Shown: in pieces, positions 3,101-50,138 of the stretch
Numbering within the stretch: position 1 is the first letter of the stretch
Layout of the letters: each line of letters starts with the position of its first letter
From: Azolla caroliniana
Taxonomy: Eukaryota > Plantae > Polypodiophyta
Reading direction: 5' to 3'
Length of the DNA: 64,000 nucleotides
Assembly: GCA_043228905.1 (NCBI GenBank)
Contig: JBHGNT010000022.1
Location: 7,688,001 to 7,752,000, forward strand
Position numbers and translations under genes: made by a program
The notes under the pieces: model-generated
Seen by the model: the letters and a program-made list of their open reading frames with translations, nothing else
Databases searched by the model: none
Told to the model about the DNA's origin: nothing

Positions 3101-5100
3101 AAGACTTTTTTAAGATGAGAGAGGCAAGATGACCCCAACGTTCTTTAGCATGCAATGTCTTGTAATATTACGACCAATAAATAAAGATATGTAGGTTTCT
3201 AGGCATAATGATTACCTTTTACCTAGTTTTTTGAAACAAAAAAGACTTCAATAGATACATGTTACGAGTCAATATTATATGAAAGGAGAACTTACCTAGG
3301 TAATTGTTACATATATCGAAGTTTATGAAAAAGCCATCCAAAAATTGGAAGTACCAAACGGTCATTCCTCCACAACGTGGAGCTAGACTGAAGAATTAGT
3401 GTTATATGCGGGAGTTCACTCATAATTAAGACCAAATAACAACCATTAATTTGCGATGACTTTGTTTCACCACAATTTCTTGGCATGACATAATCGGTAT
3501 TTAATTAGCTCTATGCAAAAGGAATTGCGATTTGGTAATTTGTCATAATCTAGATGGGTTTTTAAGCATGTTTTCGTAATTCTTTTGGGATTCCCCAAGA
3601 TGGTTTCTTGCGAACAACTTACTTAAGAGTACAGATGTGTACATCCAAAATTTGACTTTCTACCCCAAAATGATAATGTATGGTGACATGTAGATTATAG
3701 AATAGGATTGATTGAACATTGTAACATTGAAGTGGATTATCAAAAGGTTCGGATTTTAAAGCGTGACATTAACAAGTATATAAATTTTTTTGGTACACGG
3801 TATAACTTTATGTATATTAAGGAAAGTAGTAAATCACGTGAACATTTTCCATTACTAAGGAAATATTGTAGTATTTATCATTTGTATAAAAAAGTAAAAG
3901 GAATATAGTCCTTTTTATGTAGATCCAAGATTGTGAATAGTCACTGACTCACTTAGCTCATGTGACTTATTTAAGATTTAAAGTACTAAATAGAACTAGG
4001 ATCAGGTGAAGCATGGGGCTACATTTGTTTACAATGAATCGACATGTGACAATACTCACCGATGGTTGGGACTTGACATGTACATGTTAATTTCCTAGGA
4101 CATTTTCCTTTAGAATCTCAATTATTCCAACATCTCTTGATCTTTGTAATCCTTTATCTATCTATCTATCTAATTTTAAATATAAACTTAGTGGGAGTCT
4201 TTGGTGAACTTTAATCAACTTACTAACAAATAACAAAATAAAAGTAATTGCGTTCATTATGATAATGATTCAAATGCATGAATTCCAATAGATTTTGAGA
4301 ATGTGAAAAGAAACTTTAATCTAGTGAATATTCATGAATGAAATGCTAATATTAGGTCTTGATAAATGCACTTTAAAATTTAAACTATTGATTTTTATAC
4401 CCAACAAAATATGACATGGTCTCTTTGAACATTGTTAGAGGGAAATCACACGTTTCTTATCTCTCAGTTGCCAAATTTCGAGTTTCTTTATGTTTGGATG
4501 TAACTTCCAAATTAGGTTGGATTCTTTCGTCTTACCTTTCACAACCATCGAGAAGGATGTACTTGGAGGATTATCGAAGACCATGTCATCGAATTGTAAA
4601 CTTCACAACCATCGTGAAGCTCATTGCGAAATGTTTGAACCCTCACTATCTCTTGGGAAATGGTTCGCGATGAAATCATCCATGCACTCATCGAAGTATG
4701 CATGTAGTAATTATTGCATATGTTCTCTCCAATGAAAGAACATCTATTACATATTGTTTGCGTGCTCCCCGTCATAATTTGCAAAGAGGCAAAACTCCAT
4801 GTAATATTATAGAACTAACACATACTTCTCAAGCGAGAGAACTTTCTGTCGAGACAAAATGTGAAACATGCGCCTTAGGACATCGTAAAATACTATTTAA
4901 AGTTAAATTTGCTTTACGTTTGGCAACCTTCCAGGATATTCACCACAATACAAGGTTAAAGATGTTCATATATCGATTATTTATTCTTAAATAAGATATA
5001 TCCTTATAAAAAAGCTTCTTTCTCATACTCTGTAGTATTTTTAAAATTGATTGTATTATGACTAGTTTCCAACATACAATCGAGCCTTTTATACATATCG
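200..5100 (-). mobile_element. Highly decayed Helitron Rep-helicase remnant
   Basis: Minus-strand fragments read by eye occur in RepHel order: KVLSLEKYVLVL*YY/GVLPLC (~4850-4780, cf. YVIEFQxRGLPH), YFLSNGKCSRD and *NPNLL (~3870-3720), HLASLILKK..PFNHLISIHDILYQ..GLIENE (ORF 2949-3155, cf. YLRLLL..SFEDL.TVNG..GLL), IIWINEITQH and FVGFIC*HLVC*QLL (~1920-1660, Pif1 motifs II/III). Many stops and frameshifts; ends not defined. Confidence 0.55.
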
Positions 5101-15800: not shown

Positions 15801-16644
15801 GTGTTGGTGCGACACGTCTTTGCCGGTCCACACTCTCTGTGGAACATCTCCATACAAGGGCACTAAGGGCAATCTATTTATTACGTACGTTATCGTCATC
15901 AATGCCTCAACCCAGAATGTCATGCACAACTTGGGATGTGCTAACATACTTTGGACCCTATCCATTATGGTCCAGTTCATCGTCTTGGCCAACTCGTTAA
16001 GCTCTAGTGTTTTTGGTAGTGTGTACCCGAGCCAAATACCTTTGGTTTGGCAGTACTATTCGAATTGCCTGCTGTCGTGCCTTTCGGTGCTGGATCGTTG
16101 CGTGAGTCGGGTGGGAACTGCAGGGGTTTTGGACTAGGAGGAGGAGAACTCTAAAACAGATAGGAATGTGAATAGATTGTAACAAAGAGATAGAAATTCG
16201 TGAATCCCACGAATATAATTTTTTAGTTTTATTAATATTTAACCCTAATAATACCCAAGTAAGAATCAACACCCTTTACATATAGAGAAAACTCATGAAT
16301 CCCACGAGTATAGTGTATTAATCGGTATTTAGAAACGTACTCAATTTCCAAAGATTCCAACCCCCAAATTACATCTTGTCCCCATCCTTATATAGTGATG
16401 GGAGAGGATTAACAATTCATGCTTTTTTTCTAACTATGGACTCCACGCTTTCTCTATCTATAGACTATATGATTTCTCTAACATACTTCTTCTAAAAGTG
16501 ATCATGCCTTTTCTAACCTCATGTGTTTTTTTTATCAACAATAGTGTTCATGCACTCTATGTGTAAAAGTAGCTTTTCCTAAAAAATATACGTGAAATAA
16601 CCTTTGTATATGGGATATCTTCTTTTTTAATACTTAAAATGTGT

Positions 16645-22174: not shown

Positions 22175-22978
22175 CAAAATACACTTTATGACACCGCGGT
22201 AGTCGCCCCCATTGTTCTCTCAGAGTACTTTCAAATTTCGGTCGGTCTCCCTCTTGACTTTCGCTTGGAACTTGTTGAAGACGGATAACATCTGGTCCTT
22301 CGTCTTCAATACCAAAACCCACAATGTCCGACTATAGTCATCGATGAAGGTCACAAAATACTGTGAACCAGCATGTTACTTCGTGTCCACATAACATACA
22401 CATGTATGCACGAGTTCCAACAACATTTCCTTCCTCATCGGGGGCCTAGTTCGGAAAGAGTTTCTATTTTGCTTGTCGGCCAAGCAATGAGTGCACTTCT
22501 CTAGGTGCACATTCTTCACCACCAAAATGAGGTTGTCATCAGCAAGTCTTCACATTCCCTTCTCGGTCATATGGCACATCATCCTGTGCGACAGTTTTCC
22601 GAAAGTGTCAATTGCCACATTCACTTCCTCTCGACATAATCGAGCATGCATCAAATACAATGTGTTGGTTTTCCGATCTTAGGCCACAATCAAGCTCCCA
22701 TTGCAGAACTTCATGACTCCGTTCCGGATGCTAACATTGCACAATCTTCTTCTAGAGGACGTAGGTACTCATCTCTTTATCAAAGTTGTTGTATAGACTC
22801 ATTTCTATAAAACATCTTATGTATGTAGTTGACTTCAGATGCATGACTTCCCAAGTTGATGCATCGATCTTTTCTAGCTTCGTCTTTCAGTATTGCATCG
22901 GCAACCACAACTTGTTGCACATGAACATATCCCGCATCTTCCAGCTCGTTGCACACGAACAACTCGTTGCACACGAAC

Positions 22979-24160
22979 AGATAGATAGATAGATTATATT
23001 ATCGTCTTCGGAGGTCAAATATGACCTATGACACCAAAAATATTACATTTCACGTGATACGTGTGAAAGTGAGTAGTGACTCTCGATGTTCAAGAAATTT
23101 ACCAATGGATGTTGTAATCGAGAGTGCACATTGTGGTTGTGAGAGGAATTCATGCAAGGATTGGGCTCGGTCGAAGAGATGTGGAAAACATGGTCTAATG
23201 TGATCAAAGGGAGAGCATTGTATCAAAGTGTGATACTCAGAATCGTGAACTTGTTTAGGGCAAAGTGTGCATAGCCAACCACTCTCATCACCTATGCTTG
23301 AACGCCATGTCTCACATCGCAATGCATGTGAGCTAAGTCGCATGGAAGCAATGGTTTGAATGGTAGATAACGGTATGGGCTCAAACATGTATCAATGTGT
23401 ATGATTTCCCCGTTCCGCAGAGAATATGGTTTTGTAGTTAGGTGCAACATCTGTAGTATAATGTGTGAAGCATGAGCCTCCACATTTGTCCCATGTCATG
23501 ATACATTGGTGTTGCAAAAAGGCCTCATTTACAGAGGAATCTAATGATGCATCATGAAGCAAGTGTCTCGCGGGTGTCTCGCATCCCATCTACTAAACCA
23601 TTTTTCTATATCTTGCATCCAACTGGAACACACAATTTTGCTTTTATGCGTCTTTTGGATCTTTTTGCTTGCTTCCCATGCAATTCTAGGAAGTCGATGT
23701 GAGGGAATTTTTTGAACCTTAAACATGTATTCAACAACCCTTTCCATGGCCATGATCTGAATGGGAAGCGATCCCGTCTCAAGGAGGAGGAGGGTATAGG
23801 GCATTTGTTTCTTAACTTGTAGAAACTTTGTAAGAAAATGTTTTTAGACATTTTCAAACTCTTTCCACATAGATTTAGGGATGCTACTGCCCCATACTTC
23901 TACCCCATAGAGAAGAACCGGTGTCACCAAAGTGTCAAAAAGATATTTCTTGAGGACTCAACATTTAATATCTCAAAGATTGCATGTGTTCTCAATGCAT
24001 AGTATGCTCGTTTACCCTTCTCTAAGCGACGTGTAGCACATTCATTCCATCTATGATTTGAAGGAACTTCAAGGCCAAGATATTTGAAGCTTTCCACACA
24101 TTCAAGTGGCTCATTGTTGTACATAATGCATGGTTTATCTCTTTTTTGGCTCTTCACAAG
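22979..24160 (-). mobile_element. LINE 3' portion (RT C-terminus and CCHC finger; RTE-X-like) with (TATC)n tail
   Basis: VESFKYLGL (23924-24256), LLLLETGSLPI (23541-23804), and RLSSHALRCETWR..LCTLC..EYHTLIQC (23050-23388); GATA repeats at 22979-22994. Confidence 0.8.

Positions 24161-24162
<2 letters not shown>

Positions 24163-24221
<59 letters not shown>
24163..24221. repeat. (GA)n microsatellite
   Basis: Perfect GA run. Other GA/CT tracts lie at 6439, 8002, 12733 and 26333. Confidence 0.95.
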
Positions 24222-24224
<3 letters not shown>

Positions 24225-24412
24225 CAAAGTATGTTAGCACATGCCAAGTTGTCCATGACATTCTAGGTTGAGGCATTGATGACGGCCATTAGCACCCTTG
24301 GACGGAGATGTTCCACAGAGTTCTCCTCCTCCTAGTCCAAAACCCCTGCGGTTCCCACCCGACTCATGCAACGATCCAACACCGAAAGGCACGACAACAG
24401 GCAATTCAAATA
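24221..24412 (+). repeat. Two-segment inverted filler copied from ~31562-31665 and ~31760-31855
   Basis: The reverse complement of 24221-24320 nearly equals 31562-31662, including a deletion private to that copy; 24320-24412 matches the Copia A/LTR X junction. Confidence 0.85.
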
Positions 24413-26225
24413 AGTAGGGGTGGGGTAAGAAGAGTGGAGGGTTATAAGTATGTGTATGCTAAGTAATAAGTGGGGGTGGGCTATGAAAAACAGGAGATTA
24501 TGCTAAGTAATAAGTGGGGGGTTATAAGTAAGTAAGTGTATAGTATTAAGTAAGAGATTTTGGGGATGACCTTCTATATTTAGTGTTGACCAAAAAAGAG
24601 TGAATGGACTCAGACTTAGTCCAACACACAAAAGGTCTAGGTATCTTAGATAGTTTGGGATCTATAAGTAAGTCCTCATGGAGGTTTTTTAGCATGTCGT
24701 GAATTCCTATCCTAGGGGTATCTCGTGTATATCTAAGTTTGAACATAATATGTAGAAGAGTACTTTTGGGTTTCCTACTATATATTAGTGATTTCCTAGC
24801 ACTAAACGGGTCATTTTTATAATTCTCTTTTATGAATGAAGGGGGATATCCTCTCTTAATTGGTGTAGTAAAAAATAGTCTTTTCATTCGACGAAAACCT
24901 AAAGGAGTGCTCTTTCTATTTAGGTATCGTTTTAGTTCATTAATAGTAAAATGTCTTTTTAAATGAAGGGGGTGTTCTGACAAGAACGAGAGATATTGGT
25001 AAGCATTTTGGGGCTTTTGGTAGCAATTAAAGAAGAATTTTGAGTTTTCTAGGGTTAATGCATAAGTCTAGGAAGGGTAATCTAGAGGGGGAAGTGGTGA
25101 TGGTAAGTTTGATACAATTATTAGTGGAGGTATTATAGAGTTGAAGGTAATTTTCTAACTCAAGTTTAATACCCGTCCATATTCCAAAAGCATCATCAAT
25201 ATATCTAGTGAAAAAGCAAAGATTTGGGTGTGATGGTTGTGAACTCTCTAAGTGAGCTAAGAAAAGGCAAGCATATACTACGGAAATATTACTACCCATG
25301 GTTGTACCCTTTACTTGTTGATAGATCACGTCGTCAAAAGAGAGAAAATGATATTCTAATGTGTGTGCACTAAGTGTATAAATAAGGTTAGTTTTAGAAG
25401 TCGAAAAATGGGGGCTAATGAATTTTCATAAGGCTTCATGACCTGGCTTAGGGGGGATGCTAGGATATAATGATTCAACATCAAAGGTAAAGATAAAGCT
25501 ATTAGGGGGTCGTTTGAGATGTTCTAGAGTTTGGATAAGGGAGTGTGAGTCTTTCAAATATTTTTTTTGAAGGAGAAGGAAAGCATGAGTTGGTGGTGAA
25601 GCCATTTAGACGTCTATTCAAAAAGAGAGTTATTATATGAAGAAATAGGTCTAAAGCCCATTGGGTTCTTGTGGAGTTTGGGGAGGAAGTAGAGATTTCA
25701 TACTTGGTACCCTGTTGAGGGCTTATGTAATATGTAGTTACCTTCTATGGTGGATAAGGTACCTAGATGGTTGTTTACAATGTTTTTAAGTCTATATGAT
25801 AACTCCTCAAGTGGATAGTGGGAAACTACTCTATAGGTATTAGAATCAGAAAGGTGTTCTACAACTTTGTTATAGTATGTGTCTTTGTTAAGAACACAAA
25901 CTCCAACGTTTTTATCTGTGGGTAAAATTATGATTCTATTGTTATTTTTAGGAGATCATAAGGCTTGTAATAAGGGGAGTGGAATCCTAGTGGGTTTTAA
26001 TTTGAGTGTATGAAGTGTATTACTAAAGAGAGTTTGGTGTTTAACTATAATGTTTTCTAGGGGTGTGTGTATTTAGTAGGGGGTTGCCAAGTAGGGTTAG
26101 GTAGTTTAAAGGGATTTAGGGGAGAATTATCCTCATCTTTGAAAAAGTGTTTAAGTTGGAGGGTCCTACTAAGGCTATCAAATTCTTTAAGTAGGGTAAT
26201 GTCAGGAACTCTATTAAGGCAGAGA
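24413..26225 (-). mobile_element. Penelope-like element RT core and C-terminus; no GIY-YIG domain
   Basis: Motifs SRTLQLKHFF, IIILPTDKNVG, YFLPKLHKNPMGFRPI, TFDVESLYPSIP, YQQVKGTTMGS..RYIDD..LPFLDL (25027-25329) and SEHP..ELKRY..RGYP..LV (24546-24983), followed by a stop. Several frameshifts. Confidence 0.85.
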
Positions 26226-26328
26226 AGGAATTAGTACTAAAAGAAGGATTAGTACTATTGTTGGGGAATAGTACTAAGACAGAGAAGGATTAGTACTATG
26301 AGAGGTGTCGAACTTTGAGAGAAGGAAT

Positions 26329-26372
<44 letters not shown>

Positions 26373-26598
26373 TGATGCGAAAGATATATGTATTATATGA
26401 CGGAAGATATACAACAGTAGTTAGAAGGCTTAAGACTGGCGTTGAACCGATTTGGTTCGAACTAATGCCTTGCGCCTCCTTTTATAGTGTCTTCAGGAAT
26501 ACTCCTGAAGTTTCTAGAATGTTCCAGAGAAATCTGGAATATACATCAATTTCCCAATAAAACCTAAATGAAAATAATATCCTTCAAATTACAATTCA

Positions 26599-26651
26599 TA
26601 CCCTAATGGTAAAGTCTCGACCCGTGTAACAAAAGGTTATGGGTTCGAGTC
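26599..26651 (+). promoter_or_regulatory. tRNA-like Pol III A/B-box module in the chromovirus LTR
   Basis: TACCCTAATGG (26599) ... GGTTCGAGTC (26642). Confidence 0.6.
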
Positions 26652-26654
26652 TAG

Positions 26655-29366
26655 TTATGACACTATCCCCCCTTTAAAACGACGAGTTTCACGAGTCGTT
26701 TTGGATTGAGGACCCGGTTTCTCGGGATATCGTCGATGGAAGTCTTCTAGAAGAGCACGAGCATTGGTCACATTCTCGATCGGTTCCCAAGTACGCTCGC
26801 TGGGACTATATCCTAGCCAATCGACTAGATAGTAGAGCTTGTTGCGAACAATCTTGGAATCGAGGATGGCAGCGACCTCATACTCAGGTCCATCTTCGAG
26901 CTCGATAGGAGGTGGAGGTTGTATAGTACGTCCTGGGATAGTGCTCTCGTGATAGGGTTCGAGGAGAGAACTATGAAACACCGGGTGTATCCGAAGTTGC
27001 GGAGGTAGCTCGAGACGAAAAGCGACATCATTAATCTTCCCGATAATACGGAAAGGACCTAATCGCCGATAATCCAACTTCTCACATGGGCGAGTAGTCT
27101 TGATGTGTCGTCGTAGCAGCCACACCCGATCTCCAATGTTAAAACTGGATGGAAGTCGATGACGATCTGCGTAGTCCTTGTGTGATTGTTGAGCTTGCTG
27201 GAGTTGAGTAGATAAATCCGCTTGTATCTTGCGTAACCGCTCCAAACGATCCTCCGCGCAAGGATTTGTGGACACTTCTGGGGTTTCAAGGACACACCAC
27301 CGGGGATGATATCCCGTATAAGCGTAGAATGGCGTGACTTTAGTCGATGCGTGGATAGCGTTATTATAGGCAAATTCGGCGAACTGAAGAATATCTGCCC
27401 AGTCATTCTGATGATAGTTGAGAAAGCACCGCAGATACTGCTCCAGTGTTTGATTTGTTCGTTCGGCTTGACCGTCGGTTTGTGGGTGGTAGCCGGAGGA
27501 GAGGTTACAAGTGACCTTCAGCATTTTAAAAAGGTGCTTCCAGAATTTTGACACAAACTGGGGTCCACGATCGCTGATGATATTATCAGGGAGTCCATGA
27601 TGCCGACATACTTCCCGCATGACAATTTCGGCGGTGTCTTCACTAGATATTTCTTTAGTACATGGTAAGAAATGAGCCATCTTCGTATATCGATCCACCA
27701 CTGTGAGAATCGCACTGAATCCCTTAGAGACTGGAAGATCTGTAATGAAGTCAAGAGCAATGGATTGCCATGGCTTGCTTGGAATTGGTAATGGTTCTAA
27801 TAAACCATATGGATGATGTCTTGGCATTTTCGCTCTGCAGCATGTATCGCAAGTCCGAACAAAATCTTCGACAAATTGTCGCATACGGGGCCACCAGAAT
27901 GATCGTTGTACTAAATCTAATGTTTTAGTACTACCAAAATGTCCTGCTGTATATGTGTCATGGCAGTTTTGTACTACTCGAAGGCGGCAAGAACCATTAG
28001 GAACATACAAAAGTTCTTTAAAGAAGAGTAATCCATCACAGTATTTGAATTGCCGATAATCCGTACCTGGTGATTGTGATTGTGAACATGACGCTCGAGA
28101 GGGGTCAATTTGTGCTAGTATAGCTTGGGCGAAAGCGTCAGTCTTCAAGTCCTCACGTATAGTATTGGTAATGTCGGAATCCACAAGCATGTCAAAGACC
28201 TGTGCTGCTTGCAGTCGTGCTGGACCCAAGATTACTTGCTTCTGGTTATCGAAAGCTGGCTCACCGGGACGTGGTGTTAGATACGAACGCCGTGATAATG
28301 CATCTGCCTTCCCTTGGTGCTTCCCCGGACGATATGTAATTTTGAAGTCGAAGCGTGTGAGGAAGTGGGCCCACCGAGCTTGACGTCGATTCAGTACACG
28401 AGCATCTTGAAAGTAGGCAAGGTTCTTGTGGTCACTGAATACAGTGACCTGATGAGGAGATCCCTCCAGGAAATGCCTCCATTGCATAAAAGAATCAACT
28501 ATTGCTAATAGCTCTTTATCATGAATTTCGTAGTTGATTTCGGCGGCGTCAAACTTACGGGAGTGGAAAGCCACAGGATGTAGCTTCTCGTCGTTACCCT
28601 GTTGTGACAGAATGCTCCCCAATGCGAAATCCGATGCATCAGCTTCGATAATGAATGGTTTTTCCGGATCCACATGACCTAAAATTGGAGCTGATGTAAA
28701 CGCCTTCTTAAGACTCTCGAAAGCCATGTCCGTCTCTTTAGACCAAATGAATGATTGTCCCTTCCTGGTGAGCTGTGTGAGAGGCAGCACAATTTTTGAG
28801 TAATTTTGTATGAACTTCCGGTAGAAATTTGCAAAGCCTAGGAAGCATTGCACATCCCGCACCGAACGCGGAGTGTGCCATTCTATCACCGTTTTGACCT
28901 TGGCTGGGTCCATAGATATGCCTTCTGAGGAGATGACATAGCCGAGAAACTCCACTTGGTTGCACCCGAAACTACATTTCTCTAACTTTGCATACAGACC
29001 ATGTTCTCGAAGTCGTTTTAGTACTAATAGTACATGAGAATCATGTTCTTCTTGGGTCTTTGAATAAACCAGTAGATCATCCAAATAGATGATCAAAAAA
29101 TCATCCAAGAGATCTCGAAATATATCATTCGCCATGTGCTGGAAGACTGTCGGCGCATTAGTGAGTCCGAACGGCATGACCGTATACTCGAAGTGCCCAT
29201 ATCTGGTGCGAAACGCGGTCTTCCATTCATCTCCTGGTCGGATCCGTACGAGGTTATAGGCTCCTCGTAAGTCTATCTTCGTGAAGAACCTGGCACCGTT
29301 GATCCGTTCTAAAAGACTTGAGATAAGGGGAAGAGCATACCTATTTCTTACTGTGACCTTATTCAA
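26655..29366 (-). CDS. Gypsy pol RT-RNaseH-integrase-chromodomain (903 aa open stretch)
   Basis: Uninterrupted ORF ending in EYEVAAILDSK..YLVDWLGY..TWEP. Separated from the protease ORF by a frameshifting deletion near 29415. Confidence 0.9.
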   Translation of the reverse strand: MNKVTVRNRYALPLISSLLERINGARFFTKIDLRGAYNLVRIRPGDEWKTAFRTRYGHFEYTVMPFGLTNAPTVFQHMANDIFRDLLDDFLIIYLDDLLVYSKTQEEHDSHVLLVLKRLREHGLYAKLEKCSFGCNQVEFLGYVISSEGISMDPAKVKTVIEWHTPRSVRDVQCFLGFANFYRKFIQNYSKIVLPLTQLTRKGQSFIWSKETDMAFESLKKAFTSAPILGHVDPEKPFIIEADASDFALGSILSQQGNDEKLHPVAFHSRKFDAAEINYEIHDKELLAIVDSFMQWRHFLEGSPHQVTVFSDHKNLAYFQDARVLNRRQARWAHFLTRFDFKITYRPGKHQGKADALSRRSYLTPRPGEPAFDNQKQVILGPARLQAAQVFDMLVDSDITNTIREDLKTDAFAQAILAQIDPSRASCSQSQSPGTDYRQFKYCDGLLFFKELLYVPNGSCRLRVVQNCHDTYTAGHFGSTKTLDLVQRSFWWPRMRQFVEDFVRTCDTCCRAKMPRHHPYGLLEPLPIPSKPWQSIALDFITDLPVSKGFSAILTVVDRYTKMAHFLPCTKEISSEDTAEIVMREVCRHHGLPDNIISDRGPQFVSKFWKHLFKMLKVTCNLSSGYHPQTDGQAERTNQTLEQYLRCFLNYHQNDWADILQFAEFAYNNAIHASTKVTPFYAYTGYHPRWCVLETPEVSTNPCAEDRLERLRKIQADLSTQLQQAQQSHKDYADRHRLPSSFNIGDRVWLLRRHIKTTRPCEKLDYRRLGPFRIIGKINDVAFRLELPPQLRIHPVFHSSLLEPYHESTIPGRTIQPPPPIELEDGPEYEVAAILDSKIVRNKLYYLVDWLGYSPSERTWEPIENVTNARALLEDFHRRYPEKPGPQSKTTRETRRFKGGIVS

Positions 29367-30123
29367 GCCACGGTAATCTACAACGAGTCGAAGCGAGCCA
29401 TCTTTTTTCTTGACGATTCGAATGCCGAATGAAACCGTTCTCCAAATTCTCCTCTATATAGGCTCGAAGGACTTCTAGCTCGGTTGGTGACAAATTGTAG
29501 ATCGGCCCCCATGGCGGCTCTTTTCCCGGTTGTAAGTCGATGGCGCAGTCGTACGGCCGATGATGAGGAAGTGTGTTGGCTTGTACTTTATCGAACACAT
29601 CAGCATACTGACGATACTTCTCGGGAAGTTGAACGGTGGACTCCTCTTTGGTGGTGCTGGAGGGTTGTACTGATATTGCAAAGAGAAACATTTCCTCCTT
29701 GCGCCCTTCCTCACGCAACTGACGTAGCGAAATGGTTGCAACCTTCTGGGTAGATCCTTGGGTTTGTCGCAACCGGATTTCCCTTGTCCTCCAATCTATG
29801 TCTGGGTCATGTAACTCGAACCATGGTAATCCTAAAACTATGGGATGTTCTGGAATACTAATAATATTAAATGATACTACACATGTTAAGTTATCTAGGA
29901 CAATATTAACGGGTTCCGACTCTTCTATGATATTACCAGAAGCAATGGGACGACCATCAATGACTACTACTGAGGCTGGACATGGGAGCTTTCTGAGAGA
30001 TATCTGATGAGCTCGGGCAAAATTCCTATCCATGAAGCAAGAATTAGCTCCGGAATCTAGAAGGGCTAAGGTATGTACTGGAGGGGTACTTTTAGTACTA
30101 ACTGCTACTTGGGCTACGAACAC
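29359..30123 (-). pseudogene. Gypsy aspartic protease and RT N-terminus
   Basis: LALLDSGANSCF, IVLGLPW and GPIYNLSPTEL..GFIRHS; the expected KSP.GAP.FFV segment is missing. Confidence 0.88.
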
Positions 30124-30144
30124 ATCACTAACTTGCTTAGAGGA

Positions 30145-30244
30145 NNNNNNNNNNNNNNNNNNNNNNNNNNNNNNNNNNNNNNNNNNNNNNNNNNNNNNNN
30201 NNNNNNNNNNNNNNNNNNNNNNNNNNNNNNNNNNNNNNNNNNNN
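30145..30244. other. Assembly gap (100 N)
   Basis: Run of N; true size unknown. Confidence 1.
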
Positions 30245-31555
30245 AAGATGGGAGGATGTGTTTCAAACCTAGGCTGAGGAGTTGTGTCTTGTGTTTGGAG
30301 AGAGTATAATCAATGTGATTGTGTATCCTACTATTAAGTACGGGTTTCCTAAGGAGGGGAGTCCAAAATTTGGTTTGTGGTTTTCTAGTATTTGACTTTT
30401 TAGTGTGTGATTTAGTGTAAGGGGAGAAGGGGAAACGAGAGTTTGTTCTACCTAGCCACATGTAGGTATCACAAGTTAAGGGGGGCCTATCTAGTATGTA
30501 AAAGAGACGCTTACAAGGGTGCAAGTTGTGCTTAAAATGTTTACTAATACATTTTGCACGCCTCGCTACTCGTTTTTTTGGTCTAGACGTATAAGACGGA
30601 GTTTTAGTTTGGGGGTGAGGGGGGGGTTTATAAGATTTATTATATGGGTGTGTGACAAGGGAAAACAAGTTAGAATTAGGAAAAAGGGGAGGGGTATTAT
30701 ATGTAAATAGGGAGGGGTTATTTTTCAAGTTATGTGAGAATAAAGGGGGGGGGGGGGGGTGCATGTATGGAATTATTATGAAAGGAGATATTAGGGGGGG
30801 AGGGGTAAGACCAGAGGTATACAAAGTGTTGGGGGGAAAGTATGGGTGGGGGTCATTAAAAAAAGGGGGAAGGGGGTTAGGTTTGGGAATATTAGAAAGT
30901 AACGGAGGGGTATACAAGGAATTTGTAGAAAATGTGGGAGGGTTTTGAGAGTGAAAGGGGTGTGGGTGTGGTGGCCATAAATAAGGAAAGAGGGATGGGT
31001 TATGCTGCCCTATTGTAGGAGGGAAAGAGAATTGAGGGGGAAAGGAGGAGGGATGAGAGGCCTCGAGGGGCTCAGTATACAGAGGAGGATTGGAGAGCAA
31101 GGGGGGAAGGTGAGAATGGGGGAAGTCGACGTCTCAGTAGTCGACTCCACGCGCCGAGTTGGGAACACTGCCACCCGTATTTACCTTTAATCCATCGTGT
31201 CTTAGATGGCTGTGTTGGGCCGACGAGAATCTAGCATGCGTGGCCGATGAGTGGAAGTTGTGGATCAAAGATGGGGGTACTCCGTGTGAGCTTTGTGGCC
31301 AAGCGTATGGTGGTTGATGTCATTGCTGCCGCCGAAAAGTGATGATGGTCAATGATGGAGATCCTGTGGTGGATGATTCAAAGGACCTGTATAAGGGGAA
31401 ACATATGTGGTAAAGTTGGAGTTCGGGAATGGTGGTGTTATCCTCGTGTTATGGTGGAGGTAGGCTGAGTTTGTGTTCAGGCCTACTGAAAGGCAATTGG
31501 GTCTATAGAATAATACTTTTGGGTTTCTATGATTGAGGTTGTGAGGATAAAGGTT
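30245..31555 (-). mobile_element. Penelope-like element 5' part (Pro-rich N-terminus and PLE N-terminal motif)
   Basis: ORF 30114-31100 ends IHNHIDYTLSKHKTQLLSLGLKHILP, the NLS..L...LL.LGL.F.P motif that precedes PLE RT. Same G-rich + strand skew as 24413-26225. Confidence 0.7.
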
Positions 31556-33957
31556 CACACTCTCTGTGGAACATCTCTGTCCAAGGGTGCTAATGGCCGT
31601 CATCAATGCCTCAACCTAGAATGTCATGGACAACTTGGCATGTGCTAACATACTTTGGACCCTCTCCATTATGGTCCGGTTGATCCTCTCGGCCAGCCCG
31701 TTGAGCTCTAGTGTTTTCGGTCTTGTGTGCTTGAGCCGAATACCTTTAGTTTAGCAGTACTATTTGAATTGCCTGTTGTCATGCCTTTTGGCTCCGGATC
31801 GTTGTGTGAGTCAGGTGGGAACCGCTGGGGTTTGGGACTAGGAGGAGGAGAATTCTAAAATAGATAGGAATGTGAATATAGATTGTAAGAAAGAGATAGA
31901 AATTCGTGAATCCCATGAATGTAATTTTTTAGTTTTATTAATATTTAACCCAAATAATACCCAAGTAAGAATCAACACCCTTTACATAATATAGAGAAAA
32001 CTCGTGAATCCCACGAGTATAGTGTATTAATCGGTATTTAGAAACATATTCAATTTCCGACGATTCCACCCCCCAAATTACATCTTGCTCCCATTCTTAT
32101 ATAGTAGTGGGAGAGGCTTAACAATTCATGCTTTTTCTCTAACTACGGATTTCATGCTTTCTCTAACATGCTTCTTTTAAAAGTGATCCTGCTTTTTCTA
32201 ACCTCATGCGTTTTTTTATCAACAATAGTGTTCATGCATTCTACGTGTAAAAGTAGCGTTTCCTAAAAAATATACGTGAAATAACCTTTGTATATGGGAT
32301 ATTTGCTTTTTTAACACTTATAATATGTTAGTATAATGGTAAAGCTACAAATTATTAACATGAAGGTACAAGGTTTGAATCCTACTCTATGCATGTAATA
32401 TATATTTTAATATTTTCTTCTATTTCTTCATATTTATTGAATCGGTTACTTTATACGTTTTTCACATTGTGTACGAAATACACTATGACACTGCAGTATT
32501 CACCGCCATTGTCCTCTTTGACTAAATTTAGCTTTTGGGCGGTCTCCCTCTCGGCTCTCGCTTGGAACTCCTTGAAGATGGATAACACCTACTCCTTCGT
32601 CTTCGATACGGAAGCCCACAATGTCCGACTATAGTCATCGATGAAGGTCACAAAATATTGTGAACCAGCATGTTACTTCGTGTCCACATAGCATACACAT
32701 GTATGCACGAGTTCCAGCGACATTTTCTTCCTCATCGGGGGCCTAGTTCAAAAAGAGGTTCTTTTTTGCTTTCTGGCCAAGCAATGAGTGCACTTCTCCA
32801 TTTGCACATTCTTAACCACCAGAATGAGGTTGTCATCAGCAAATCTTCACATTCCCTTCTCGCTCATATGGCACAACCTCCTGTGCCACAATTTTTCGGT
32901 CGATTGCCACATTCACTTCCTCTCGACATAATCAAGCATGCATCAAATACAATGTGTTGGTTTTCCAGGCTCGGACCACAATCAAGCTCCCATTGTAGAA
33001 TTTCATGACTCCGCTCCAGATGCTAGCATTGCACAATCATCTTCTAGAGGACGTAGGCACTCGTCTCTTTATCAAAGTTGTTGTATATACTCATTTCTAT
33101 AAAACACCTTATGTATGCAGCCGACTTCAGATGCATGACTTCCCAAGTTGATGCATCGATCTTGTCTGGCTTTGTCTTTCCGTATTGCATCGGCAACTAG
33201 AACTCTTTGCACACGAGCATATCCCGCATCTTCGACTCCACATTGAATAGTTGGATATGGTTAACTTGAACATTCCACGGAAATGTTTGTCCATCGCTTT
33301 GATACTAGTTTGTTAGGATCATAACCAGCCACAACCGTTTTCTCGGTCATATATTCGGGGTGCAAAGATCGAGTAAGATAGTGCATAGATAGAAAGACAA
33401 AACAGAAAACAGAAGTACTCATGAGAAATGAATCGTCAATCCACACTGAAATACACAACTCGGAAACTTAGAAAAAATAGTGGACACTGATTTAATGTGG
33501 AAACCCTTTGATGGGAGAAAAACCACGGAGAACAAAGACTTCACTATACAATGGATATACAATAGAGAAAATTACAACATCCTCATGATTGAGTGTATCA
33601 GCCACATAGGACTCTTGGCGTTAGTTGTTACCAAAACATAGCTATGTCGATGCGCTGTCACTCTTCTCTCTCAGTCTCTGTCACGCTTAGCTACACACCT
33701 GCCACACTCACACTGCTTTCTATTCTACACCCTATGTTTTGCCCTAGATGTATTTATAGTCTTACATCATATGGGCTATTTACAAGTGTAGCCCCTACTA
33801 AACATTGTTACTTTTATTATTATTATAGTTATAATAAGAATAGAGAGTTAATCAACCGACTCTTTACTGTCAACTCTTTGACTCTCGACACTCGACCCGA
33901 ACAGTTGGCTCCTCCTTGTCTTTGATTGTTGGCTCTTCTAGGCCCGAACAATCAGCT
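31555..33957 (-). mobile_element. Copia A copy 2 with solo LTR X (31777-32490) and Copia A 5' LTR (~33311-33950)
   Basis: Integrase fragments flank LTR X (CTGT/CTGC); deleted gag; degenerate iMet PBS at 33295-33307. Confidence 0.78.
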
Positions 33958-41032: not shown

Positions 41033-42728
41033 TGTCGTGTGAATCTTCTCACACTGTTAAAAAGTAATGAAATAATTATTATAGATTAGATTAGTAGCTT
41101 ACTATAGAAAGATGGATATACTCAAGAGCTTTAAAATGTATTTTACTATATACAAAATAGAGAAATACATATCAAGTTATGTGAAAATAAAGTTTGAGAA
41201 GATAGAGAAATTAGAACTATCCCACATAGATAGGAAAGTTAAGGCCCTAGCTATATAAGCACCTTGAGCTCCCTCATTTTTCATTTGTGCTAAGAGCACT
41301 TTGGCCACTTTGTCTTGATAGATGATGGTGGCCAAATTCCCTAAAACTGGAAACCGGCTGGTAAACAAATCCGGAAACCGGCCGGTAAGCAAATCTGGAA
41401 AACGGGTCTAGAAAGCAAATTCCGAAACGGGTCCGGTAAGCAAATCCAAAAACCGGTCGGTATGCAAACTAGAAACCGGTCGGTAAGCAAAACCGGAATC
41501 GGAACCGGAAACCGCATGGTATGCAAACTGGAACCGGAATTGGAAACTGGCCGGTATGCAAACCGGAACCGGAACCGGCAAGCAAATTGGAACCGGAACC
41601 GGCCGGTAAGCAAAACCGGAACTGGCCAGTAAGCAAAACGGGAACTGAACCGGTATGCAAACCGGAACCGGAACCGGAACCGGTAAGCAAAACCGGAACC
41701 GGTAAGCAAAACCGGAACAGGAACCGGTATGCAAACTGGAACCGGAATCGTCTGGTAAGCAAAACCGGAACCGGAACCGGTAAGCAAACTGGAACCAGAA
41801 TTGACCGGCAAGCAAAACCGGAACCTGCTAGCAAGCAAAACTGGAACCGGAACCGAAACCGGCTGGCAAGCAAAATGGAACCAGCTGGCGAGGGATTCGA
41901 CAATCGAGCGGATCCAGCTCCTGAACGAGGTTGGACGCGGATGGACGGAAGATTGGATCATGCAACAAATTAAAGTAAAGTGAAGAGAACTAAAGGAAAG
42001 GCCATGTGGACGCAAGCAACTAAAGTTGGAGTGCATGCAAAAAGTAAAGGTCATGTGGACGGTCACATGCAACTAAACGAAAAAGCCATGCCACTAAAAA
42101 TAGATGCAACTAAAAGAAAAAGCTAAGCAACTAAAAGTAGAGGCCATGCAAGGGAGAACTCCATATAAAATTCCATTTTTTTTTCCTATACTCATATGCT
42201 CTCTCCATATTATATTGTTTTTCTTTTCCTTCGGAGCTCCCCTATCTTATCGAAGCCATATCTCTCAAGTAAACCCTAATTTTCTTATCGAAGCCATAAC
42301 TCTCAAGTAAACCCAAAATTCCCTATGGAAGCGATAACACTCAAAAACTCTAATTTCCTTACGGAAGCCATAAACCCAAAATTTCCTTATGGAAGCCATA
42401 TCTTACTCATAACCCTAAATTTCCATACGAAAGCTATTCAACTCATAAAACCATAATCTCTTATCAAAACCAAAAACCCTAATTTTCTATAGAATTCATA
42501 TCTTAATTTCCTCTAATCTATTACTCTAGCCATCTCCATTAGCAAACTTTTTGTAATCCCAATCTTGGGATTAATTGTAATCTTTCTTTCTACTTGTTAA
42601 TGAAATTTGTTAATCTTTCTCATTTCGGTTAATTTTTAGTATATAAATACACGAATTTGATATCCTCTAGTCAAAGGCCCCAGGGTCTTGCCTCAATGTT
42701 CACGTATCCTCGTCGTATTTTCGCGACA
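41033..42728 (+). mobile_element. Long (1.7 kb) Gypsy-type LTR Z inserted in Copia E RT
   Basis: TGTCGTG...CGCGACA termini like X, Y and W; splits the KTAF|HGDLEEE motif; followed by TCTTTGGT, a possible PBS stub. Confidence 0.72.
41345..41885. repeat. Degenerate tandem array built from AACCGG and GGTAAGCAAA units inside LTR Z
   Basis: Directly visible; it generates the spurious low-complexity ORFs at 41341-42072. Confidence 0.9.
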
Positions 42729-44809: not shown

Positions 44810-47800
44810 TGATGGGAAATAATCGAGGAAAAATAATCGACACTTTCCAAACTTCACCTCTCGGCCACAACCAAGGAAACACACGAATCGTTGTTGCAGA
44901 AAATGGGAAATAAGTGGACACACGATTTAACGTGGAAAACCCTGTACGGGAAAAACCACGGGAGTACAAGACTCTGAACCAAAACTATTCACAGAGAAAT
45001 ATACAATGGCGAGCTGCAAGGCGACGACCTTGAGCTCGCTGTCCTCGCCACAGGCGGCGGAATTACACAGAGGCGTCGACCTCTTCGTCTCTCACGCTCT
45101 ATCTCTCTCACGGCTGCTCTCTCTTCACTCCTCTTGAGTGGAAAAACAGAAAAATGAGTAGCAACATAAAAACTGTTTGCCCTAAGTCATATTTATACAC
45201 ATATGACTTTAGGGCTATTTACAACTATAGCCTCAAGGGCCCTTGGCAAACATATTCACAGATATGTCCCCGCATCCGGATCTCTCTCCGGGTACATTCG
45301 TCATCCGGCTCCGAAGCCGGGGTCTTCATCATCCGGTTCCGAAACCGCAACCGGGCTTGTCGTCATTCATCTCCGGACATCCGACCATCCCATCCGGAGG
45401 GACCGTAATCCCAACAAACTCCCCCTTCACTTCGGCATGGGATGTCTCTCCAATCCGATCCTCTTCCGGCATGCTTCCAGCTTGTCGGGTGTGAGCACCT
45501 TGGTCAGCATATCCGACCCGTTCTCGTCCGTGTGGATCTTCGTCAGCACGAACTCCTTGTCTTCTATCCTTTCCCGGATCCAGTGATATCTTCGCTGGAT
45601 GTGCTTCGTCCGGGAGTGATACGCCGCGTTCTTCGCAAGGTGGATTGCACTCTGACTGTCGCAGTAGAGTCGGTACTCCTCCTACCGGATACCGAGCTCT
45701 CTAATGAAGTCCTTCATCCATATTATTTCCTTGCCGGCTTCAACAGCCGCCATGTACTCCGCCTCCGTGGTTGACAACGCAACCGTCTTCTGCAGCCTCG
45801 ACTGCCATGAAACAGCTCCCCCTGCATACGTCATCACATACCCTGATGTGGACCGGCTGGTATCGGCATCAGCCGACATATCCGAATCGGTGAAGCCGTC
45901 GAGTTCGGGCTTACCGGAGCCGAATCGGAGGCACACGTTTGCCGTGCCCTTCAGGTATCGGAGTATCCACTTGGCCGCGTTCCAATGCTCTTTGCCGGGA
46001 TTGCTCATGTACCGGCTCACCACTCCGACTGCATATCCGATGTCCGGTCGGGTACACACCATTGCGTACATCAAGCTCCCGACGGCAGAGGCATATGGTA
46101 CTTTCATCATGTCCTCCTTCTCAGCCTTTGTCTTGGGGCTCTGCTTGCTGGACAGCTTGCAGTTTGCGGGGAGTGTTGACCCAACCGGTCTTGCTTCCGA
46201 CATGTTGAACCGGTGAAGCACCTTTGTCACGTACTTCTCCTGTGACAGCCACAACTGCTTCTTCTTCCGGTCCCGGATGATGTGCATCCCTAGTATTTGC
46301 CTCGCCGGACCCAGGTCCTTCATTGAGAAGGTTCGGTGAAGAGCCTTCTTCAGCATCCGTATCTTGACCTGGTCTCGTCCGACGATCAACATGTCGTCCA
46401 CGTACAGGAGGAGTATTAGAAAGTCTCCTCCTTCGAACTTCTTCACAAACACGCAGTGATCGGACTGCGTTTTGTGGTACCCTTCGTCGGTCATGAAAGA
46501 GTCAAACTTCCGGTACCATTGCCGGGGAGCCTGCTTCAGTCCGTAAAGGCTCTTCTTCAACCGGCATACCAGGTGCTCCTTCCCTTTCTTCTCGAATCCT
46601 TCCGGTTGCTGCATGTAGATCTCTTCTTCGAGGTCACCGTGAAGGAATGTCGTCTTCACGTCCATCTGTTCTACCTCGAGATCCATGCTTGCCGCTATGC
46701 TCAGCACCGTCCGGATGGAGGTCATCTTCACTACCGGGGAAAATATCTCGTCGAAGTCGACGCCCTTCTTCTGCTGAAACCCCTTCACCACGATCCTGGC
46801 TTTGTATCTCGGGGGGTTTCCGGCATCTCCCGGTTTCAGCTTGAACACCCACTTGTTACGGAGTGCCCGTTTTCCTTTCGGCAACTCCACAAGTTCATAT
46901 GTGTGGTTCTCATGCAGGGAATCCATCTCCTCCTGCATGGCACTTAACCACCTGCGGCTATGGGTGTCATGCTTCGCTTCTTCAAAGCTCTCCGGCTCCC
47001 CCTCGTCGGTTAGCAGCACGTGCTCTGGTTCCGGAAATCTCCGGGGAGCCCTTCTCTCTCTTAGAGGATATCTCCGTTCCGGAGCTTCGGTAACCGGTTC
47101 TTCCGATTCTTCTTCATCCGAATCCATTTCGGGATCGGGGCCGGTTCCGGTATCATTTTCATCTTCTTCGGCCGGTTCTGTTTCTTCACCGTCTTCGGCC
47201 GGATCTTCGAGTGTTAACCGGTCCCTTGCCGGTCGGGACTGCTCCTCGTAGAGTTTATCCTCACCGGTCGACTTGGAGCTCTTCATCTTCTTCTCCGACT
47301 CCCAGTCGGCGAGTGTCTTGTTCTCCATGAAGATGATATCACGGCTCCGGAATATCTTCTTGTCGACCGGGTCCCATACTCGGTAGCCGAACTCGTCGTC
47401 GCCGTAACCGAGGAATATGCATGACCGGGTCTTTGGATCTAACTTTCCTCTCCGGTCCTTTGCCACATGCACGTATGCGAGACACCTGAACACCTTCAGA
47501 TGCCGGTAGGACACTTCCTTACCGGTCCACACTCTCTGCGGCGTGTCTCCGTCCAAAGGTACTGAGGGTGATCTGTTTATCACGTATGTCGCCGTCGACA
47601 TTGCCTCAGCCCAAAACCCCTTGGGTAATTTCGCATGCGCCAGCATACTCCGGACCCTCTCCATTATGGTCCGGTTCATCCTCTCGGCCAGCCCGTTCAG
47701 TTCCGGCGTCTTCGGCACAGTAAACTCGAGCCGGATTCCCTTCGAGCGACAGTACTCCTGGAACTGCCCCTGGTATTCCCCTCCGTTATCCGCTCGTATC

Positions 47801-50138
47801 GCTTTCAGCTTCTTGCCGGATTCCCTTTCCACTCTCGCGTGAAGTTCTTTGAAGACGCACAACACTTGGTCCTTTGTCTTCAACGGTGCCGTCCACAGCT
47901 TCCGGCTGTGGTCATCAATGAATGTCACGAAGTACTGGGCTCCGCCATGTGACTTCGTTTCTACTTGACACACGTCAGTGTGCACCAACTCCAATGGTGC
48001 GTTACGTCTCGTCGGTGGCCTTGAGTGGAAGGAGGTCCGGTTTTGCTTACCGGCCAGACAGTCGGTACACTTCCCCAGGTGTACGTGCTTTACCGGTATC
48101 AGGTTGTCATCGGCAAGCCTCTTCATCCCCTTCTCACTCATGTGGCACAGTCTCTTGTGCCACAGCTCACCGGCAGTGTCGGCTGCCACGTTCAGCTCCT
48201 CCGGACATAGCCGGGAATTCATCAGGTACAGTGTATTGACCTTCCGGGCCCGAGCCACTATCAGGCTCCCTTTGCTGAACTTCATGACACCGTTCCGGAT
48301 GCTACCCGTGTAGCCTTCATCATCTAGCCTCCCGGCCGAGATCAGGTTCAATCGGACCTCCGGAACGTGTCGAACATCCTTCAGCAGCATCTTGCATCCG
48401 GTTGATGTCATCAGCCACACGTCTCCTATGCCGGCAATCCGGCATGTGCCTTCATTTCCCATCCGGACACAGCCGTGCTCACCGCCTGTGTAGGATGAGA
48501 AGTATTTCTTCTCCGGGGTCAGGTGGAACGACGCTCCGGAATCGACCACCCAGGTCATCTCTACACCGGCAAGGTTCAGCTCCCTCTCTTCGGTAATGAG
48601 CATTATCTCTTCTTCACTTGCCGCGAGTGCCGTCGTTCCTTTCCGGTCCTGCCCTCGCCGATCCGGACCTCTCCGGTCCGTGGCTCCCCGGTATGCACCG
48701 TTTCTCTCCGGTGACTTCTTCGAATCGGTGTCGTCGGCTCCGTTGTCCTTTCGGTAATGCCGACAATTCTTCCGGAAGTGCCCCGGCTTCCCACAGTGGA
48801 AGCATGTGGGTCTTCCTCTTGACTGCGACCGGGTCCCCGACTTCTCCCGTCTTTGCGGACTCCGGTTCCATTGTCTTCCCCGTTCCGATTCGGTAAGCAG
48901 CGCCTTCGAGTCGGAGGCCGGTTCTTTATCTCTCCGACGCGCTTCTTCGTTCAAAATACTTGTCTTTACCGTTTGTAGGGACAAGTTATCTTCCGTGCAG
49001 GAGGTGTTGAGAGTCACCACCAAGTTCTCCCAGCTTTCCGGCAATGTACACATCAGAATGATGGCTTGCATTGCATCCTCCAGCGGGAACTTGATCGCCG
49101 CAAGCTGGTTCACGAATCCCATGAACGTGCTTACGTGTTCCACCATACTCTCGCCATCCCGGTACTTGACGTTCACTATCTTCCTCATCAGGGAGGTCCG
49201 GTTCAACGCATTCTTCCTCTCGTAGAGGCCCGACAGCTTCCGCCACATCTCATATGCGTTGATGTCGTTCGCCACATGTTGTAGAACGCTCACGTCGACG
49301 TATTGCCGAATGGTTGCAACGGCTTTCCGGTTCAGAAGCCTCCATTCCGACTCAAGTACCCCCTTCGGTATTTCCGACCTGTCAATCGGTTCGTACAGGT
49401 CCCGAACAATCAGAAGATCCTCCATCTTGATCTTCCAGTCGGCGTAATTCTGCGCATTCAGCACCATCATCCTCGGCTGCCCGCTGCCGCCGCCTTCCAT
49501 TTTCTGCAGCAACCTTGCTCTGATACCAAATTGATGGGAAATAATCAAGGAAAAATAATCGACACTTTCCAAACTTCACCTCTCGGCCACAACCAAGGAA
49601 ACACACGAATCGTTGTTGCAGAAAATGGGAAATAAGTGGACACACGATTTAACGTGGAAAACCCTGTACGGGAAAAACCACGGGAGTACAAGACTCCGAA
49701 CCAAAACTATTCACAGAGAAATATACAATGGCGAGCTGCAAGGCGACGACCTTGAGCTCGCTGTCCTCGCCACAGGCGGCGGAATTACACAGAGGCGTCG
49801 ACCTCTTCGTCTCTCACACTCTATCTCTCTCACGGCTGCTCTCTCTTCACTCCTCTTGAGTGGAAAAACAGAAAAATGAGTAGCAACATAAAAACTGTTT
49901 GCCCTAAGCCATATTTATACACATATGACTTTAGGGCTATTTACAACTATAGCCTCAAGGGCCCTTGGCAAACATATTCACAGATATGTCCCCGCATCCG
50001 GATCTCTCTCCGGGTACATTCGTCATCCGGCTCCGAAGCCGGGGTCTTCATCATCCGGTTCCGAAACCGCAACCGGGCTTGTCGTCATTCATCTCCGGAC
50101 ATCCGACCATCCCATCCGGAGGGACCGTAATCCCAACA
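44810..50138 (-). mobile_element. Copia D, young and nearly intact
   Basis: 607-bp LTRs at 44810-45416 and 49532-50138 (about 4 transitions apart by eye), TSD AGGAG/AAGAG, PBS 49517-49528, PPT 45419-45428. Confidence 0.97.
45427..49500 (-). CDS. Copia gag-pol polyprotein with one premature TAG (45682-45684) in RNaseH
   Basis: ATG at 49500 after the PBS; CCHC, DSGAS, GAG-pre-integrase, rve, LYVDD and RNaseH in one frame; the frame continues past the stop to ..HPMPK. Confidence 0.93.

What the first reader, a model, noticed from the sequence alone, without database searches (positions are those of the whole stretch)
24413..31555. Endonuclease-less Penelope-like retroelement at an internal, non-telomeric site
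Seen: PLE-type motifs from the N-terminal LGL motif through DK.G, RYIDD and the H-P..RGYP C-terminus, then a stop. There is no GIY-YIG at either end, a ~200-aa Pro-rich leader, and no TTTAGGG array at the junctions. Known: EN-minus PLEs (Athena, Coprina) are telomerase relatives usually found at telomeres, and plant PLEs are patchily distributed (Selaginella, conifer Dryads, Chlamys). Inference: a poorly described plant EN-minus PLE family inserting internally.
Basis: partly seen in the sequence, partly recalled or inferred. Interest (0 to 1): 0.7.

Follow-up and report, generated by a model that had tools for sequence, protein, structure and literature searches.

The report
Nuclease-less Penelope retroelement, internal fern copy
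This is a dead, broken copy of a telomerase-like jumping gene that has no DNA-cutting enzyme, in a plant that is likely a fern; its intact relatives carry telomere-matching repeats yet are also joined to ordinary DNA at many different points, which suggests they likely copy themselves into existing DNA breaks.

Summary
Confirmed: an endonuclease-less Penelope-like element (EN- PLE), minus strand, 31557-24404, with no telomeric array anywhere in the 64 kb.

Intact relatives (up to 92% amino-acid identity) end at the thumb without GIY-YIG, and the predicted fold is closest to TERT. Their unit is hammerhead, ORF1, a -1 slippery site, then RT. The 'Pro-rich leader' is ORF1's tail. ORF1 encodes Asn-Pro runs with (CCCTAA)n, which this copy has lost. 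Eight of 20 loci are head-to-tail. Still, 7 distinct copies have non-element DNA on both sides, 0 of 8 5' ends carry a telomeric cap, and only 1 of 8 3' ends lies in the CCCTAA run.

The RT groups (support 99) with Selaginella and conifer EN- proteins, a known kind. Best reading: a telomere-type element that also primes at existing breaks by microhomology (inferred). This scan has already noted what appears to be the same family elsewhere in this genome, and similar internal EN- copies in other genomes.

The parts
30566..31557 (-). 3' part of ORF1 (Pro-rich, decayed); the copy begins about 140 nt downstream of the (CCCTAA)n stretch of intact relatives
   Evidence: blastn to L001 255-1651; ORF1 of 720-820 aa in intact loci; 90% identity over ungapped columns
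30520..30579 (-). remnant of the predicted -1 frameshift signal: slippery site (A7C here, A AAA AAC in intact copies), ORF1 TAG, downstream hairpin
   Evidence: ORF2 opens 13 nt before the end of ORF1 in all 6 loci checked; the frame offset is -1 in 5 of 6 (L004 has a broken ORF1)
30245..30463 (-). start of ORF2 (MWLG ... LGL motif), cut by the gap
   Evidence: tblastn P0001 1-72 at 89%
30145..30244 (.). assembly gap (100 N), presumably hiding the gypsy 5' LTR and gag plus 15 nt of the PLE
   Evidence: colinearity; content inferred
26200..30144 (-). Ty3/gypsy chromovirus inserted into PLE ORF2: protease, RT, RNase H, integrase, chromodomain, polypurine tract, 463-bp LTR (TGTCA...TGACA, 26662-26200)
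   Evidence: Pfam; LTR sequence
24546..26199 (-). rest of ORF2: N-terminal domain, DK, RT palm (catalytic Asp kept), thumb, stop; frameshifts near 26069, 25581, 25054; premature stops at 25958, 25700, 25616, 25428
24404..24545 (-). partial 3' UTR; ends about 165 nt after the stop and about 120-140 nt before the hammerhead of intact copies
24317..24412 (.). 3' flank piece b: 96 bp of a Copia-associated high-copy repeat, 95% to 16057-16152 and 88% to 31761-31856; shares AATTGCCT with the element at the joint
   Evidence: very high contig depth
24216..24320 (.). 3' flank piece a: inverted duplicate of the 5' flank 31562-31666 (1 mismatch in 99 nt, shares a 23-bp deletion with it)
24163..24222 (-). 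(TC)30 tract, then a 5'-truncated LINE-like remnant; the tract may be the PLE's own
   Evidence: ownership inferred
31552..32479 (-). 5' flank: decayed Copia sequence; shares TG(G/A)ACC with the element at the joint

Best explanation
This is a dead, doubly truncated copy of an endonuclease-less Penelope-like retrotransposon of the land-plant Coprina type, which was likely written into an existing DNA break inside a Copia-rich region and was later split by a Ty3/gypsy element. Shown: the intact unit of 4.6-5.0 kb is hammerhead, pyrimidine tract, ORF1 with (CCCTAA)n read as Asn-Pro, A AAA AAC plus hairpin, RT ORF, 3' UTR; units form head-to-tail arrays and have no nuclease. Inferred: read-through RNA from the arrays is cut by hammerheads, probably as dimers. 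RT is made as an ORF1-RT fusion by -1 frameshifting. RT extends any free 3' OH that pairs with a few bases of the RNA: a G-rich telomere end at the CCCUAA run, or a break end elsewhere. The cDNA's far end is joined by microhomology. This would give ends at many positions, no target-site duplication and no telomeric cap, as seen. The inverted 105-bp duplicate beside this copy is probably a later repair event.
For: Full-length relatives at 62-92% identity end within about 15 aa of the end of the profile. No GIY-YIG was found, with a positive control of 44 of 328 proteins. The AlphaFold model of P0001 (pLDDT 92.8) has telomerase RT as its top 13 Foldseek hits, with LINE-1 ORF2p first at rank 14. 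The quick tree of 96 rows puts the family in a 32-row EN-minus clade (SH-aLRT 99) with Selaginella, Cryptomeria and 'Gb' proteins, on the other side of a 99-supported branch from all 30 EN+ rows. Hammerhead core found at 11 places in 9 of 20 loci, with 94.9% of cells paired and a palindromic stem III. Asn-Pro runs use AAC/CCT in 57 of 62 codons in L002 against 76 of 160 outside, and the run is kept in both subfamilies. L001's array ends inside the CCCTAA run. Eight distinct 3' ends fall at 8 different positions; 8 distinct 5' ends have no telomeric cap; 4 of the 7 doubly flanked copies are 97.5-99.8% identical to array copies. All four joints around the window copy show 4-8 nt of exact or near-exact microhomology.
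Against: No empty site was seen, so insertion-time joints cannot be told from later deletions. The window copy carries about 3% neutral decay, and its inverted duplicate looks younger (1 of 99 mismatches, P about 0.01 if the same age), so at least one joint postdates insertion. The loci are short-read contigs: collapsed repeats can join flanks of different copies, and telomere-capped ends are prone to loss, so 0 of 8 caps is biased. No contig shows a real telomeric array, and the host's telomere repeat is untested; most land plants use TTTAGGG (PMC9827991 passage). The CCCTAA run could be slippage in a low-complexity protein. Microhomology was not tested against chance. Frameshifting, ribozyme cleavage and RT activity are untested; the hairpin is strong in L001 (z -6.1) but modest in L004 and L007 (z -2.4). 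Hammerhead covariation is weak (30 of 500 shuffles as high) and the Rfam scores are below the gathering cut-off.
Confidence: 0.62

Rival explanations
1. The family retrotransposes only at telomeres. Internal copies, this one included, are DNA-level relics: pieces of terminal arrays captured as repair filler or moved by inversions, fusions and deletions.
For: Arrays, hammerhead and CCCTAA run are telomere-type traits. The window's 3' flank is a patchwork of Copia pieces with microhomology at each joint and a young inverted duplicate. L005, L006 and L010 span a unit boundary, as a captured piece of array would.
Against: Near-identical copies up to 8.6 kb (L006) with intact RT ORFs lie between unrelated flanks. 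Only 1 of 8 3' ends uses the CCCTAA run. No telomeric repeat remains at any of the other 15 distinct junctions.
Confidence: 0.28
2. The element inserts internally using nicks made by another element's endonuclease (a LINE or an EN+ PLE).
For: A LINE-like remnant lies 240 nt from the 3' end; two 3' regions lie at or near (TC)n or T tracts (window, L006).
Against: No shared target motif was apparent. No target duplication beyond 4-8 nt chance words in 6 of the 7 doubly flanked copies tested. No EN+ PLE among close relatives.
Confidence: 0.07
3. A truncated EN+ element, or two unrelated fragments joined across the assembly gap.
For: A 100-N gap sits at the 5' piece's edge and the gypsy's second LTR is not seen.
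Against: The pieces abut within 15 nt on an intact copy. The ORF ends at the same stop as intact relatives. No GIY-YIG in any of 20 loci.
Confidence: 0.03

Closest known systems
Coprina-type EN- PLEs of land plants: Selaginella moellendorffii Sm1/Sm2 and conifer EN(-) PLEs (PMC9033089 and PMC4209133, passages; PMC13159263, passages and section 17)
   Same: No EN, telomerase-like RT, type I hammerhead in the repeat; the RT clusters with a named Selaginella protein (P0098, 37%) and Cryptomeria proteins.
   Different: The host is likely a fern, a lineage not listed in the passages read. The telomere-like run lies inside ORF1 about 1.2 kb after the hammerhead. Many copies have non-telomeric flanks. 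P0098 was not shown to be Sm1 or Sm2.
Coprina-1_Alen of Ascochyta lentis (PMC13159263, section 17)
   Same: About 4.5 kb, two ORFs (coil plus disorder; DKN-RT-thumb).
   Different: All 13 of those copies sit at chromosome ends, 12 with telomeric repeats on the inner side; no such repeats flank the copy here.
Athena / Terminon elements of rotifers (PMC6431247 passages; PMC8557442 Fig. 1 legend)
   Same: Coiled-coil-type ORF1 separable from RT by a frameshift, hammerheads, head-to-tail chains.
   Different: Terminons put the telomere-complementary repeat immediately after the hammerhead and cap 5' ends with telomeric repeats; neither was seen here.
PLE-X of Chara and Selaginella (PMC8557442 section 9)
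   Same: Plant, EN-minus, hammerhead, internal insertion without a known nuclease.
   Different: PLE-X has CxC motifs, a long N-terminal extension and belongs to the IFD-bearing Chlamys clade; this RT has no CxC and Coprina-like spacing between motifs A and B.

Membership tests
Penelope-like elements (order) | RT closest to telomerase RT, with DK motif and PLE thumb | tested here: met
   Foldseek ranks 1-13 are TERT; D172 K173, D317, D412 D413, H486 invariant in 118 rows
Penelope-like elements (order) | hammerhead ribozyme in the repeated end; tandem or partial-tandem layout | tested here: met
   in relatives (8 of 20 loci head-to-tail); lost from the window copy; cleavage untested
EN- PLEs (Coprina/Athena) | no GIY-YIG domain in full-length copies | tested here: met
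Coprina | RT phylogeny with named Coprina (Sm1, Sm2, Cc1, Pt1) | tested here: inconclusive
   groups with a named Selaginella protein inside an all-EN-minus part of a quick tree; no named Coprina, Athena, Chlamys, Dryad or TERT reference could be loaded
Coprina | reverse-complement telomeric repeats in the sense strand | tested here: inconclusive
   (CCCTAA)2-10 in 9 of 20 loci, codon-biased; host telomere repeat unknown; absent from the window copy
Coprina | location at chromosome ends, 5' ends capped by telomeric repeats | tested here: inconclusive
   not met for the window copy or for 0 of 8 5' junctions; array-only contigs could be terminal; no genome held
Athena/Terminon | telomere-complementary repeat immediately 3' of the hammerhead | tested here: not met
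   hammerhead at L002 602, first CCCTAA run at 1840
Athena/Terminon | ORF1 separated from RT by a frameshift with a pseudoknot | tested here: inconclusive
   -1 overlap, slippery heptamer and hairpin present; pseudoknot not modelled
PLE-X / Chlamys / Naiad | CxC motif and insertion in fingers; N-terminal GIY-YIG (Chlamys, Naiad) | tested here: not met
   no CxC in P0001; 58 aa from motif-A Asp to motif-B Gly, close to the CoprinaP1 row of the paper's supplement; no EN
Dryad / Penelope-Poseidon (EN+) | C-terminal GIY-YIG | tested here: not met
LINE or DIRS | APE or restriction-like EN, or RNase H with tyrosine recombinase | tested here: not met
   no such Pfam family in ORF1 or ORF2; fold nearer TERT

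The most novel reading that the evidence does not exclude
A still-active fern lineage of nuclease-less Penelope elements hides its telomere-pairing tract inside ORF1 as an Asn-Pro code and routinely acts as an RNA-templated patcher of internal double-strand breaks, priming on a few bases of homology anywhere along its multimeric RNA. It would be a compact plant model of a telomerase-like RT working away from telomeres.
Probability: 0.35. Interest if true: 0.7.

Novelty: new member of a known kind. Interest (0 to 1): 0.42.

Why it matters
EN- PLEs are the closest mobile relatives of telomerase. How some of them reach internal sites without a nuclease is stated as open for the plant PLE-X group (PMC8557442 section 9). 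This family offers intact, near-identical copies with a 627-aa RT that folds confidently, a defined ribozyme and frameshift signal, and a set of young internal junctions, so the question can be tested. It would also extend plant EN- PLEs to ferns. The window copy itself is an ordinary dead fragment.

Tried and rejected
No genome was held for copy mapping. Rfam found no hammerhead in window 22500-33500. A sequence profile search of PDB gave 0 hits. Viral contigs and genome contigs gave no relatives. No RNA holder was listed, which is no evidence either way. Laying contigs skipped the CCCTAA region and showed only a small part of the loose ends, none telomeric; uninformative. The Atlas could not read ORF1; for the ORF2 N-terminus it returned DUF8422 clusters. 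A single-sequence fold of the ORF1 N-terminal region was unreliable (pLDDT 42, long helices) and was not searched. One search used a mis-registered structure string and was redone. The careful tree did not finish, so the quick tree is reported. It used 96 rows picked from 247 candidates, near-duplicates P0018-P0083 had been left out, and the window copy itself was not in it (P0001 stood in). A search with the window's Copia for host lineage gave only distant named angiosperm hits. An early guess of moss or liverwort found no support. Three key papers were not held: Gladyshev and Arkhipova 2007, Lin 2016, Arkhipova 2017. The idea that the inverted duplicate is a target-site duplication was rejected as likely too young.
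Full report
What is there. The minus strand holds two pieces of one Penelope-like element: 31557-30245 and 26199-24404. They match an intact copy (L001) at 255-1651 and 1667-3482, leaving 15 nt unaccounted for at a 100-N gap. Between them lies a Ty3/gypsy with protease, RT, RNase H, integrase and chromodomain and one 463-bp LTR, 26662-26200. The copy is dead: the 3' piece has 3 frameshifts and 4 premature stops. Changes private to it have dN/dS 0.76 against 0.20 on the two intact branches (43:16 versus 93:132; Fisher P 1.7e-5). The window has no tandem telomeric repeat of either type and is largely LTR-retrotransposon DNA.

No endonuclease. A search with the 132-aa RT core gave 17 hits among 95 candidates, eight of them 612-636-aa proteins at 68-92% identity over the query. 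They stop right after the thumb. Pfam found GIY-YIG only in distant controls (P0017 weakly, P0115, P0121). My own profile flagged 44 of 328 stored proteins and nothing in six frames of the window or the 20 loci. The model of P0001 (pLDDT 92.8) matched telomerase RT at ranks 1-13 and LINE-1 first at rank 14 (TM-scores about 0.4, so this is a ranking, not a tight match).

The intact unit. Twenty loci show a unit of 4.6-5.0 kb: hammerhead, pyrimidine tract, ORF1 of 720-820 aa, ORF2 of 657-667 codons, 3' UTR. ORF2 opens 13 nt before ORF1 ends, at A AAA AAC followed by a hairpin; the offset is -1 in 5 of 6 loci checked, and the sixth has a broken ORF1. I infer -1 frameshifting; 'slippery heptamer' is a recalled label. 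The window has one extra A there, which fuses ORF1's Pro-rich tail to ORF2: this is the 'leader'. ORF1 has a predicted helical N-terminal region (low confidence), no Pfam family, and Asn-Pro runs encoded by (CCCTAA)2-10 in 9 of 20 loci. In L002, 57 of 62 codons in those runs are AAC or CCT against 76 of 160 outside, although slippage would also homogenise codons. The hammerhead has an intact core in 10 of 11 places (CTAACGA in the other) and a palindromic AAACTAGTTT stem III, 94.9% of cells paired, with weak covariation. It scores below Rfam's cut-off (HH9, 19-22 bits). PMC4209133 (passages) describes such short palindromic stems as working as dimers. The window copy starts about 140 nt after the CCCTAA stretch and ends before the hammerhead, which is why neither was visible.

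Telomeric or internal? For telomere-type behaviour: 8 of 20 loci are head-to-tail, L007 chains three subfamilies, and L001's array ends inside the CCCTAA run against unrelated DNA. For internal insertion, counting L013/L014 and L019/L020 once each: 8 distinct 5' junctions, none with a telomeric cap; 8 distinct 3' junctions at 8 different positions, one in the CCCTAA run; 7 copies with non-element DNA on both sides. Four of these (L003, L005, L006, L010) are 97.5-99.8% identical to array copies. Flanks include Copia sequence, an EF-hand exon and plastid-like DNA. The longest word shared by the two junctions was 4-8 nt in the 6 copies tested; L019 also has an offset 126-bp flank match at 85%. 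Caveat: these are short-read contigs, which can mis-pair flanks and lose capped ends, and none shows a true telomeric array.

The window's own joints. The 5' end meets Copia sequence through TG(G/A)ACC. The 3' end meets a 96-bp repeat piece through AATTGCCT. That piece joins, through CTCT, a 105-bp inverted copy of the 5' flank, which joins (TC)30 and a LINE-like remnant. The inverted copy shares a 23-bp deletion with the adjacent flank and differs at 1 of 99 sites; at the PLE's age about 6% is expected (P 0.008-0.013). So part of this patchwork probably postdates insertion, and the (TC)30 may be the element's own tract with the hammerhead region replaced by repair filler (inference).

Relatives and host. 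A profile search found 157 hits among 7991 candidates, including Selaginella moellendorffii (37%), five Cryptomeria japonica proteins and two labelled 'Gb' (read as Ginkgo from recall). The representative library gave 4725 hits at E below 1e-30. In a quick tree these plant rows and the family form a 32-row clade with support 99, none with GIY-YIG. A plastid-type ndhG beside one relative has Pro where angiosperm chains have Leu, as with heavy RNA editing, and earlier scan notes on this genome call it a fern; I treat 'fern' as likely.

Literature. EN- PLEs are listed for Selaginella, Pinus taeda and Picea abies (PMC9033089, passages). Telomere-associated elements are called rare in plants (PMC12477314, passages). 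Two-ORF Coprina (PMC13159263, passages and section 17), frameshifted ORF1 and internal EN- PLE-X (PMC8557442, passages, section 9, first part and term search of the supplement) and Terminon ends (PMC6431247, passages) are described. I also read passages of PMC8287931, PMC9827991, PMC9477723 (its methods name (TTAGGG)n for a fern assembly) and PMC11539532. Ten searches listed no title or abstract start on a fern PLE; most listed papers were not opened. The three primary papers on plant EN- PLEs and Terminons were not held, and they or their supplements may already describe in-ORF telomeric repeats or internal copies.

Verdict. A real, decayed member of the known land-plant EN- PLE group. The family combines telomere-type parts with frequent non-telomeric junctions. 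Break-primed reverse transcription is the best explanation (0.62), and DNA-level relics of terminal arrays is the main rival (0.28). Interest 0.42.

Noticed in passing
window 44810-50140: Copia element with a 1297-aa open frame (45685-49575) and LTRs 99.3% identical over 609 bp: a very young insertion; named homologues only about 55% identical.
   Followed up: partly
window 23040-24162: LINE-like remnant on the minus strand, cut at its 5' side against (TC)30; no convincing Pfam hit, label from recalled motifs.
   Followed up: partly
window 24324-24398: A 75-bp piece with summed contig depth of 1.2-1.9e5 in four runs, against hundreds to about 1700 for the PLE: part of a very abundant repeat of unknown kind.
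   Followed up: no
L007 4085-9570: One unit is a mosaic: hammerhead of subfamily B, ORF1 of subfamily A, RT of a third subfamily; suggests template switching or recombination within arrays.
   Followed up: partly
L018 33-2102: Pieces of two subfamilies joined in opposite orientation.
   Followed up: no
L001 3793-3825; L004, L012, L007, L010 equivalents: Conserved motif GTCGCTCGCACTCCTTGT-ACGAC about 60 nt before the ORF1 start, partly complementary to the hammerhead's GAGCGA; L010's 3' end lies just after it.
   Followed up: partly
L013 1520-9414: PLE fragment next to plastid-derived DNA (ndhG with editing-type codons, an AAA-family piece) on a contig of higher coverage than the other loci; could be organellar or a nuclear plastid insert.
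   Followed up: partly
L017 106-351: EF-hand exon (CDPK-like, label recalled) 1.2 kb from a PLE 5' junction: an insertion in or beside a gene.
   Followed up: no
window 41349-41882: Degenerate tandem array built on AACCGG units.
   Followed up: no
P0097, P0099, P0118: Members of the same EN- clade in Cryptomeria (one on an 863-Mb sequence) and in a set labelled Gb; positions relative to telomeres unknown.
   Followed up: no
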